A DNA stretch of 64,000 nucleotides from Raja brachyura. Lineage: Eukaryota. A program made the position numbers. This document shows positions 57,001 to 59,865 of the stretch, in pieces. Where the stretch lies: assembly GCA_963514005.1 (NCBI GenBank), contig OY740811.1:14384001-14448000 (forward strand). The letters are read 5' to 3'. Numbering within the stretch: the first letter of the stretch is position 1; every line of letters starts with the position of its first letter.

Positions 57001-59865
57001 ATGAGCGGTGATCTGATTAAAACACACAAGGATATAAGGGGATAGACACAAAATGCTGGAGTAACTCAGCGGGACAGACAGCATCTCTGGAGAGAAGGAA
57101 TGGGTGACGTTTCGGGATGAGACCCTCTATCAGTAAGCATGGGACACAGTTTCCAAATAAAAGGTTACACTTTTAAAGCAGTGAAGTAGAGGAATTTCTT
57201 GTCTCGATGGGCCGTGACTCTTTGGAATTCTGTACCCCAGAAAAGACAGAGACATTAAGTGTAAAATATATGATAAATCAGAAGGGGGAGTAGAAGTGTC
57301 AGTGATTAATGATGAAATTACTTCATTATTGAGCGAGGATAATGAGTTGAAAGAAGGTTGCGGAAATCCTTTCTAATTACATGCATTTTTATGCAGATTT
57401 TGAAACGTTTGCAGCAAGTTCTTATTAAAGTCATGTCTATTAGGAAACCAGACGAGGGACTGCCTGGTTCAATTCTCTCCAGGACAGGTCTATTTCCTCT
57501 GTGCCAATCATACACATAATGGCATCATCCATATAGATTCTTGTAACAACTTCAATTGATGTACTCAAGTGCAACTTCAGTTTTTCATTCATAATCCAAT
57601 GTTCCTTTAGTGCATCAATTTCTAAGCCTTCAAGATACCTTTAAGGAGGTAGTTACATTTCTAAAAGTAGAAAACATCAAGGATAAGGAAAGAGAACAAG
57701 AATATAGCATTGGGAATGATGATAATCGTGATTCTATTGATGGGCCAAATGACCTGCTCCTATGTTCTGTGCTTAGATGTGACAGTGTTGGGAATAAAAC
57801 CCTATCTCCACTGCCACCTCCACTGAGGTTATTTTTATTGCTTCATTAGTGAGAGCGACATTTATTGTCCACTTACAACTGCCTTCAATCACATCAATGT
57901 GCCCGTAGTTACATTCAGATCAGATAACTAAAAGAAACATGTTTAGGAAGGAACTGCGGATGCCGCTTTACAGCATAGACACAAAATAAAGATTGTCTTC
58001 CTTTAAGGTAAAGCAGATTGGGGTTTTAGACAATACAATTGCTTCACCGTTACTGCCGTTACTAGCCAGATTAACTATTTTAAAATATTACTGAGTTTGA
58101 AGCAACCAAAGAAGGATTTGCCCATCCAACAATTTCTGTGTGCGTGAGATAATCAAGTGGGTTTTACAAAAGGCCACAAAGTGCTGGAGTAACTCAGTGG
58201 GTCAGACAGTATCTCTGGAGAACAAGGATATATGACATTTCGGGCCCAGACCTTTCCTTTGTGTATTAACCAGCATCTGCGGTTCTTTGTTTCTGCATCT
58301 GGACTTTACAATAGCTTGGACGTGCCATGGTTAATTTGTTTCATACCAATTGTATTGATTTATATGAATTTAAAGCCCAATGGCAGGATTCGAACCCGCT
58401 GCAGTTCTATGTTTCTGCACCTGGGTTTTACAATTATTTGGTGGCGTAAGGGTCACAACGATAATAATTACAGTTGTTTCATACCTATTGTATTTATTTG
58501 TCATAATTTAAAGTTCGCAGTGGCGGGATTCGAACCCGTGGCTCCATGAGATCGCCCGGCCGCCACCCAGCGGCTGTGGGAAGGTGGGTGTGAGGGAGCA
58601 TGCGCTTACCTACCCACCTTCACTCCCACCTGATAGGGCGGCGGCTGGGGGGGAGGGGGGGCGATGGGCCGCCGAGCGAGCGGCGCGCTTTGCAATTGGC
58701 CAGACGAGTTGAGTGCATTAAGTGATAGGGTGGCGGGGATGCAGCAACTGGCATCCGATTGGCCACTGGGTGAGCGATCGGAACGATTTATAATTGGCCA
58801 GGAGCTGCAGACTTGGTCTGATAGGATGGCGGTGGGCGTGCGGCTTGCCGGCTGGCATCCCATTGGTTGCTATGCGAGCTGCGCGGTTTGTGATTGGCCG
58901 AGGGAGGGGTGGAGGCGGGTCGGAGTGGTGCGCGCACCGGCCGGCGGGGCAAGGGGCGGTTGGAGTGGGGGGGAAGGGGAGCTGATCGGGGCGGTTGGAG
59001 TGGGGGGAGGGGGATCTGATGGGGGCGGGGCGAGGCGAGGGGCGGTTGGCGTGGGGGGGGGAGGGGGAGCTGATGGGGGCGGTTGGAGTTGGGGCGGGGC
59101 GAGCTGATGGGGGCGGGGCGAGGGGCGGTTGGCGTGGGGGGGGGGAGGGGGAGCTGATGGGGGCGGTTGGAGTTGGGGCGGGGCGATATGATGGGGGCGG
59201 GGCGAGGGGCGGTTGGCGTGGGGGGGGGGAGGGGGAGCTGATGGGGGCGGTTGGAGTTGGGGCGGGGCGAGCTGATGGGGGCGGGGTGAGCTGGGGGAGG
59301 GGAGGAGCACCAGGCGGCGGGAGGGCGGTTTGGGTTTGTTTTGTAGTCACCGGGCGGGCGGCGGGCATCGTGCTCGGTCTCTCTGGCCGCTCGCCTCGCA
59401 TCACCATCCTATAGTGACTCACCCCGTCCCAGCCAGCCAGCCGTCCGAGCGCCAGCAGCCATGACATCCCGGAGGTAAGGCAGCCCCCCCTCCCTCCCTC
59501 CCTCCGCGGTACCACCCGGTAAAGGTCTCGACCCGAAACGTCCCCATTCCTTCTCTCCAGAGATGCTGCCTGTCCCGTGGAATTACTCCAGCATTTTGTG
59601 CCTATCCTCGTCATAAAACGCAAGATACACGAAACTATCTATCCAAACTATTTATTTGTGTCTTTCTCCGGTTGGTGGCCGGCGCCTGCTTCCAGCAGCA
59701 CCTGACGGCGGCACCACCTTGAGCCCTCGGTGCCCTCTCAGCGACCGTGCCCCTTACCCTCAACTCTGGGTGACCCTGGATTTCACTGTACCTCGGTACA
59801 TGTGACGAATAAAGTACAATGCCATCCCCTCCCTCCCTCCCCATGCGACCTCAACCACTGCAGGT

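What the first reader, a model, noticed from the sequence alone, without database searches (positions are those of the whole stretch)
59340..59480. SHP-2-family gene directly downstream of agrin, likely the SHP-2-like paralogue lost in some mammals
A 14-nt coding exon, MTSR(R), with a phase-2 donor is the PTPN11 exon-1 signature. Canonical human PTPN11 is not linked to AGRN. From memory, a second SHP-2-like gene (ptpn11b in fish) lies next to agrin, and only a PTPN11-like pseudogene remains at this position in human. If so, this is an intact promoter and first exon of an ancient paralogue in a cartilaginous fish.
Basis: partly seen in the sequence, partly recalled or inferred. Interest (0 to 1): 0.65.

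Follow-up and report, generated by a model that had tools for sequence, protein, structure and literature searches.

The report
First exon of SHP-2-like phosphatase gene
Just downstream of the agrin gene sits a promoter and a tiny first coding exon that fit the start of SHP-2L (ptpn11b), a second SHP-2-type phosphatase gene already described from sharks to most mammals, so the call is probably right but not new.

Summary
An ATG at 59461 opens a 14-nt coding stretch (M-T-S-R plus AG). It ends at a GTAAGG donor at 59475, on the 3' edge of the only large CpG island in the window.

The upstream + strand gene is agrin. Its EGF and laminin-G exons run from 2.4 to 46.6 kb, with the stop codon at 46585-46587.

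Chance gives about 0.0004 such signatures in the 12.9 kb after the agrin stop.

PMC12151841 describes SHP-2L (zebrafish ptpn11b), conserved from sharks to mammals, with AGRN as its regional marker gene. In human only pseudogene fragments remain on chromosome 1, and HGNC names the unitary pseudogene PTPN11BP.

Exon 2 and the SH2 and phosphatase domains lie beyond the window. Identity therefore rests on four codons, the splice phase and synteny. No phylogeny could be built.

Verdict: most likely the promoter and exon 1 of SHP-2L (confidence about 0.83). It is already known, so interest is low.

The parts
2399..46587 (+). 3' part of the agrin gene. Exon pieces lie at about 2399-2662, 5695-5859, 12253-12345, 14578-14745, 15650-15763, 19958-20092, 23000-23218, 28805-28891, 42897-43145, 45336-45485 and 46378-46584. 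The stop codon TGA is at 46585-46587. Boundaries are tblastn limits, not mapped splice sites.
   Evidence: Pfam EGF and Laminin_G hits on stop-to-stop ORFs. The ORF 42894-43145 finds 292 proteins at E<=1e-5, and no named row among the best 120 carries another gene's name. tblastn of 4 named agrins reaches their last residues at 46581. The stop codon was read.
46588..58400 (.). Agrin 3' UTR (length unknown) plus intergenic DNA rich in a SINE-like ~100-nt element. No Pfam domain was found on either strand.
   Evidence: Searches give no family at or above its cut-off in ORFs >=48/50 aa here. One search shows the repeat families D1, D3, D4 and D5. One search finds the first AATAAA after the stop at 46973.
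58695..58897 (.). Cluster of five inverted CCAAT boxes (ATTGG at 58695, 58758, 58793, 58862 and 58893). Inferred NF-Y sites of a TATA-less promoter.
   Evidence: Read. Three of the window's 11 strict RRCCAATSR matches fall in 58756-58899. The window-wide count is not above chance (11 found against 11.65 expected).
58943..59290 (+). G-rich minisatellite, 84-nt unit x 4.1 copies. It carries 7 GGGGCGGGG (Sp1-type) boxes and 5 G-quadruplex-type motifs. It is part of the CpG island, upstream of or inside the 5' UTR.
   Evidence: TRF score 535, 90% matches. (7 of the window's 9 + strand GC boxes lie at 59022-59278). (5 of 12 + strand G4 motifs lie here, with a sixth at 58647).
59291..59460 (+). Unique GC-rich stretch without any ATG. 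Likely 5' UTR of exon 1. The transcription start is not mapped.
   Evidence: the only + strand ATGs in 59250-59480 are at 59275 and 59461. Sequence read.
59461..59474 (+). Start codon and 14-nt coding part of exon 1: M-T-S-R plus AG, the first two bases of codon 5.
   Evidence: A paper prints the human SHP2 N-terminus as MTSRRWFH... (PMC9744210).
59475..59480 (+). 5' splice site GTAAGG. The split falls after the second base of codon 5.
   Evidence: It matches 7 of 9 positions of MAG|GTRAGT.
59481..64000 (+). Start of intron 1, longer than 4.5 kb and running off the window. A SINE-like copy begins at 59513, and a (CT)19 repeat lies at 59868-59905.
   Evidence: no WFH or SH2 exon. (repeat copies). 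(CT repeat).

Best explanation
This is the CpG-island promoter and first exon of the SHP-2-like gene (SHP-2L, also called ptpn11b or PTPN11B). It lies head-to-tail 12.9 kb downstream of the agrin stop codon.

Shown by the sequence:
- a GC-rich island with five inverted CCAAT boxes and seven GC boxes;
- a good-context ATG (G at -3);
- 14 coding nucleotides reading M-T-S-R plus AG;
- a GTAAGG donor.

Inferred:
- NF-Y and Sp1 drive a TATA-less promoter.
- Transcription starts somewhere between about 58.9 and 59.44 kb.
- The donor splices over an intron of more than 4.5 kb to an exon 2 outside the window. That exon supplies the third base of codon 5 and opens the N-SH2 domain.
- The product would be a cytosolic phosphatase with two tandem SH2 domains and a PTP domain. 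Like SHP-2, it would be autoinhibited by its N-SH2 domain and released on binding phosphotyrosine motifs. Those properties come from the literature on SHP-2 and SHP-2L, not from this window.
For: - Sequence signature at 59461-59480. It occurs once in the window, in 0 of 100 shuffles, and 0.00038 are expected in the 12.9 kb after agrin.
- It is the first ATG after the GC-box array.
- It sits in the only large CpG island in 64 kb.
- The upstream gene is agrin, on the same strand.
- No other domain-bearing ORF lies between them or on the opposite strand.
- PMC12151841 reports SHP-2L in a conserved gene environment from sharks to mammals and draws AGRN as its marker gene. RPL6 marks SHP-2 and ATN1 marks SHP-1, on other chromosomes.
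- HGNC names the human unitary pseudogene PTPN11BP.
- SHP2 protein starts MTSRRWFH (PMC9744210).
- A dispersed repeat begins 38 nt after the donor, as expected of an intron.
Against: - Only 4 and 2/3 codons are visible. No SH2 or phosphatase sequence is in the window: 0 of 291 + strand ORFs >=48 aa, 0 of 65 short + strand ORFs after 59.4 kb, and no WFH-type exon after 59476.
- The signature alone would occur about 10^2 times by chance in a Gb-sized genome.
- The transcription start is unmapped. If it lies upstream of 59275, the minisatellite puts upstream ATGs into the leader.
- The CCAAT cluster is 560-770 nt from the ATG, farther than usual for NF-Y sites.
- I did not see the N-terminus of any SHP-2L protein, because the supplements are closed.
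- The exon-1 structure of PTPN11 is recalled.
- The paper's legend says genes drawn on one chromosome need not be neighbours.
Confidence: 0.83

Rival explanations
1. Chance match. The CpG island is the promoter of another transcript (a long non-coding RNA or a gene with a non-coding first exon, on either strand), and the ATG-MTSR-GT string is coincidental.
For: Fourteen nucleotides cannot show coding potential. Read unspliced, the ORF is 5 codons. About 0.004 such strings are expected per window, hence many per genome. The CCAAT boxes are far from the ATG and could serve a divergent transcript.
Against: The joint chance of the string on the right strand within 12.9 kb after agrin is about 0.0004. 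This is exactly where the literature places SHP-2L. No ORF with a Pfam domain leaves the island on the minus strand. The 306-aa minus-strand ORF 58721-59638 is a proline-rich reading of the repeat and matches no family.
Confidence: 0.08
2. It is exon 1 of the canonical SHP-2 gene (PTPN11), not of the paralogue.
For: MTSRR is the printed start of human SHP2. Nothing in 14 nt can separate the two paralogues.
Against: [quoted passage not shown] RPL6 marks SHP-2 and AGRN marks SHP-2L. Here agrin is the neighbour.
Confidence: 0.04
3. It is a remnant. The promoter and first exon survive, but the rest of SHP-2L is decayed or lost in this species, as in human.
For: The body of the gene is unseen. Independent losses are documented in glires and higher primates.
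Against: ATG, reading frame, donor and an unmethylated-type CpG island (o/e 0.78) are all intact. The paper reports intact SHP-2L in almost all jawed vertebrates examined, and expression in nurse shark.
Confidence: 0.05

Closest known systems
SHP-2L (SHP-2-like) of jawed vertebrates, PMC12151841 (Front Immunol 2025)
   Same: A second SHP-2-type gene whose region is marked by AGRN. It is reported from sharks to mammals. The window shows an SHP-2-type start (MTSR) next to agrin.
   Different: Here only the promoter and 14 coding nt are visible. The species of the window is not established. The paper's sequences and N-terminal alignment are in supplements I could not read.
Zebrafish ptpn11b / Shp2b (PMC3988099, PMC2933243)
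   Same: The same gene according to PMC12151841. It is 64% identical to human Shp2, is catalytically active, and is redundant with ptpn11a.
   Different: It was first taken for a teleost-specific duplicate. No synteny or start-codon data appear in the passages read.
Human PTPN11BP, a unitary pseudogene (HGNC:58112; PMC12807706)
   Same: The human counterpart of the locus. The paper places pseudogene fragments on Chr. 1 and draws AGRN as the marker gene of the SHP-2L region.
   Different: It is inactivated in human. Here the start, frame and donor are intact. No human sequence was used or compared at the locus.
Canonical PTPN11 (SHP-2)
   Same: The protein starts MTSRRWFH. The 14-nt first coding exon split inside codon 5 is recalled from memory.
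   Different: It is linked to RPL6, not to AGRN, and lies on another chromosome.

Membership tests
SHP-2L / PTPN11B (tandem-SH2 non-receptor tyrosine phosphatase) | N-SH2, C-SH2 and PTP catalytic domains | not testable with these tools
   All of this lies beyond the window. No SH2 or phosphatase Pfam hit appears in 291 + strand ORFs >=48 aa or in 65 short ORFs after 59.4 kb. No eukaryotic genome collection was open for extending the contig.
SHP-2L / PTPN11B (tandem-SH2 non-receptor tyrosine phosphatase) | Genomic region marked by AGRN (as against RPL6 for SHP-2 and ATN1 for SHP-1) | tested here: met
   Agrin ends at 46587 on the same strand, 12.9 kb upstream. The marker genes are as given in the Fig. 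4 legend of PMC12151841.
SHP-2L / PTPN11B (tandem-SH2 non-receptor tyrosine phosphatase) | SHP-2-type start M-T-S-R-R on a 14-nt first coding exon split after the second base of codon 5 | tested here: met
   Searches show the sequence. MTSRRWFH is printed for human SHP2. The exon boundary in PTPN11, and the N-terminus of SHP-2L itself, are recalled or unseen.
SHP-2L / PTPN11B (tandem-SH2 non-receptor tyrosine phosphatase) | Groups with SHP-2L and not with SHP-2 or SHP-1 in a tree; SHP-2L-type residue in the C-SH2 specificity pocket; divergent C-terminus (exons 13-14) | not testable with these tools
   No protein sequence beyond 4 residues is available. The diagnostic features are taken from PMC12151841.
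Agrin | C-terminal EGF-EGF-LamG-EGF-LamG order, with best matches to agrins through to the last residue | tested here: met
   Pfam EGF at 2258-2683, 5560-5859 and 22937-23230. Laminin_G at 14527-20146 and 42894-46584. One search hits are agrins. tblastn of 4 named agrins is colinear to their C-termini.
CpG-island promoter | More than 500 nt with GC >=0.55 and CpG o/e >=0.6, at the 5' end of a gene | tested here: met
   58560-59520 has GC 0.70 and o/e 0.78, against 0.44 and 0.44 for the window. Promoter activity itself was not tested.

The most novel reading that the evidence does not exclude
The SHP-2L promoter of this species carries a lineage-specific 348-nt G-rich minisatellite (84-nt unit x 4.1 copies, seven Sp1-type boxes, five G-quadruplex-type motifs). 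It is wedged between the CCAAT-box cluster and the start codon. Copy-number variation or G-quadruplex/R-loop formation there could tune expression of the paralogue or make it polymorphic. That would be a regulatory difference from canonical SHP-2 which might bear on why the two genes are kept.
Probability: 0.12. Interest if true: 0.35.

Novelty: already known. Interest (0 to 1): 0.22.

Why it matters
SHP-2L is a third tandem-SH2 phosphatase. Human and mouse have lost it, but most jawed vertebrates keep it, and it is proposed to bind the same immune-checkpoint motifs as SHP-2. Recognising its first exon from 14 nt plus synteny shows that a very short exon can be annotated correctly when the neighbourhood is known. 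It also gives a start point for annotating the gene in this genome. It adds no new biology beyond PMC12151841.

Tried and rejected
- Long six-frame stretches sent to Pfam were rejected because they contain stop codons. I then sent stop-to-stop ORFs instead.
- **Exon 2 in the window.** WF[HY] occurs 8 times in the six frames, none on the + strand after 59476. The 65 + strand ORFs of 20-47 aa after 59.4 kb gave 0 SH2 hits and 5 weak hits, all below cut-off.
- **Rfam at gathering thresholds:** 0 matches.
- **ARAGORN:** 0 tRNAs.
- **Bacterial promoter/terminator scan:** not meaningful for a vertebrate.
- **Exon 1/2 boundary of PTPN11 in print.** Searches for 'c.14+' and 'c.15-' gave nothing usable. 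The second search dropped the hyphen and returned c.15xx variants.
- **Bonetti 2014 primers.** They do not cover the ptpn11b start codon.
- **Other papers.** The 2026 SHP2-SOS1 preprint has nothing on synteny. Searches for PTPN11BP and SHP-2L each found one paper only. A wider term search found no further synteny paper.
- **Minus-strand ORF 58721-59638 (306 aa).** Rejected as a gene. It is a proline-rich reading of the G-rich repeat and matches no family.

Not done:
- A protein search, tree or fold for SHP-2L. The window offers no query, and sequence from a paper or from memory may not be typed.
- A look beyond the window.
- The supplements of PMC12151841 (sequence list 1B, alignment 3A), which would show SHP-2L N-termini and accessions. 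They were closed.
- The exons of agrin were searched one by one.
- Complex prediction, structure tools, the representative search and the protein atlas were not used.

Full report
**Observation**

The + strand reads ...GCCAGCAGCC ATG ACA TCC CGG AG | GTAAGG. The ATG is at 59461-59463, the 14-nt coding stretch is 59461-59474, and the donor GT is at 59475-59476. Read without splicing, the frame ends at once (MTSRR, then TAA). The ATG therefore only makes sense as the start of a spliced first exon.

- The degenerate signature ATGACNTCNCGNAGGT occurs once in the window and in 0 of 100 shuffles.
- ATG-N9-AG|GTRAG occurs once on + and never on -.
- With all Ser and Arg codons allowed, I compute 0.0037 expected per window, and 0.00038 for the + strand of the 12.9 kb that follow the agrin stop.
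- The first number means about a hundred chance copies in a Gb-sized genome. The string alone proves little; its place does.

**Surroundings**

The window has no N. I scanned stop-to-stop ORFs against Pfam:

- 291 + strand ORFs of >=48 aa;
- 294 minus-strand ORFs of >=50 aa;
- 65 short + strand ORFs after 59.4 kb.

The + strand carries EGF (2258-2683, 5560-5859, 22937-23230) and Laminin_G pieces (14527-14745, 15593-15811, 19901-20146; 42894-43145, 45258-45500, 46327-46584). The other + strand matches were four weak ones, all below their curated cut-offs.

The ORF 42894-43145 finds 292 proteins at E<=1e-5 among 343 candidates. Of the 120 listed, 117 carry a name: agrin, agrin-like, or 'hypothetical protein'. 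None carries another gene's name. Three are unnamed.

tblastn of four named agrins (coelacanth, bowfin, a turtle, a frog) is colinear over 11-12 exon pieces from 2.4 to 46.58 kb and reaches their last residues. The stop codon TGA is at 46585-46587. I searched these exons one by one and did not join them into a spliced model.

Between the agrin stop and 58.4 kb, and on the minus strand of the whole window, the only families found are remnants of a reverse-transcriptase element inside an agrin intron at 43.5-44.3 kb. So agrin is the upstream neighbour, on the same strand, 12.9 kb away.

**Promoter**

The island at about 58.4-59.9 kb is the only large CpG island in the window. The stretch 58560-59520 has GC 0.70 and CpG o/e 0.78, against 0.44 and 0.44 for the window. 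It accounts for 11 of the 12 island-like 500-nt windows among 635 tested. In order, it holds:

- five inverted CCAAT boxes at 58695-58897 (3 of the window's 11 strict matches);
- an 84-nt G-rich minisatellite x 4.1 copies at 58943-59290, with 7 of the window's 9 + strand GGGGCGGGG boxes and 5 of its 12 + strand G-quadruplex-type motifs;
- 170 nt without any ATG;
- the start codon, with G at -3.

This is the make-up of a TATA-less NF-Y/Sp1 promoter. Activity and the transcription start are inferred, not shown. A dispersed SINE-like element begins 38 nt after the donor, and further copies fill the rest of the window, as expected of an intron.

**The rest of the gene**

No WFH-type exon lies on the + strand after 59476, and there is no SH2 match in the last 4.5 kb. 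Exon 2 is beyond the window.

**Literature**

- **PMC12151841** (passages read, including the abstract, the Fig. 4 legend and the two SHP-2L sections; figures and supplements not seen). [quoted passage not shown] It is lost or inactivated in glires and higher primates. It is identical with zebrafish ptpn11b, which had been mistaken for a teleost duplicate. [quoted passage not shown] It says human SHP-2L is represented only by pseudogene fragments (Chr. 1). It also warns that genes drawn together are not necessarily neighbours.
- **PMC12807706** (one passage) names PTPN11BP as a unitary pseudogene.
- **PMC3988099** (passages) gives 91% and 64% homology of Shp2a and Shp2b to human Shp2.
- **PMC9744210** (one passage) prints human SHP2 as starting MTSRRWFH.
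- In the library, 'SHP-2L' and 'PTPN11BP' each occur in one paper only.
Two searches did not confirm it.

**Conclusion**

The best reading is the promoter and first exon of SHP-2L next to agrin (confidence 0.83). The rivals are:

- a chance string in the promoter of another transcript (0.08);
- a surviving first exon of a decayed gene (0.05);
- canonical PTPN11 (0.04).

The finding is correct but already known. That the window comes from a cartilaginous fish was not tested by any search. I only recall the dispersed repeat as typical of skates and sharks.

**In passing**

Agrin's two neural-type micro-exons appear intact. A 12-nt exon reading KSRK lies at 17537-17548, and a 24-nt exon reading xHLANEIPx lies at 30467-30490. 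Both have AG acceptors and GT donors. The motifs used to find them are recalled.

Noticed in passing
window 17537-17548 (+): A 12-nt micro-exon AAATCGCGCAAG (K-S-R-K). It has the acceptor ...tttcag and the donor GTAACG, and lies inside the second laminin-G region of agrin. It fits the heparin-binding 'y/A-site' insert of agrin (motif recalled).
   Followed up: partly
window 30467-30490 (+): A 24-nt micro-exon reading x-H-L-A-N-E-I-P-x. AG is at 30465-30466 and GTAAGT starts at 30491. It lies in the 14-kb intron before the last laminin-G domain and fits the neural 'z8' insert that gives agrin its acetylcholine-receptor-clustering activity (motif recalled).
   Followed up: partly
window 58943-59290 (+): A G-rich minisatellite: 84-nt unit x 4.1 copies, 90% matches, with seven GGGGCGGGG boxes and five G-quadruplex-type motifs. 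It lies between the CCAAT cluster and the start codon.
   Followed up: partly
window 58336-58555: Two tandem units of about 138 nt (58336-58375 and 58474-58513 are 85% alike). Each is followed by a stretch resembling the reverse complement of a tRNA 3' end (GGATTCGAACCC). ARAGORN calls no tRNA. They are probably heads of tRNA-derived SINEs at the 5' edge of the CpG island.
   Followed up: partly
window 49400-64000, both strands: A dispersed SINE-like element of about 100 nt (core ...GGGTCTCGACCCGAAACGTC...CTCCAGAGATGCTGCCTG...). There are at least 15 partial copies in both orientations in 18 kb, including one starting 38 nt after the exon-1 donor.
   Followed up: partly
window 43558-44247 (-): Remnant of a reverse-transcriptase (LINE-type) element in an agrin intron. 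RVT_1 scores 24.4 bits (below cut-off), and a C-terminal domain matches Pfam ALKBH8_N at 29.9 bits.
   Followed up: no
window 29401-29900: The only other 500-nt stretch that passes the CpG-island thresholds (GC>=0.55, o/e>=0.6). It lies inside the agrin intron between the EGF exon at 28.8 kb and the z8-like micro-exon.
   Followed up: no
window 59868-59905: A perfect (CT)19 dinucleotide repeat in the presumed intron 1.
   Followed up: no
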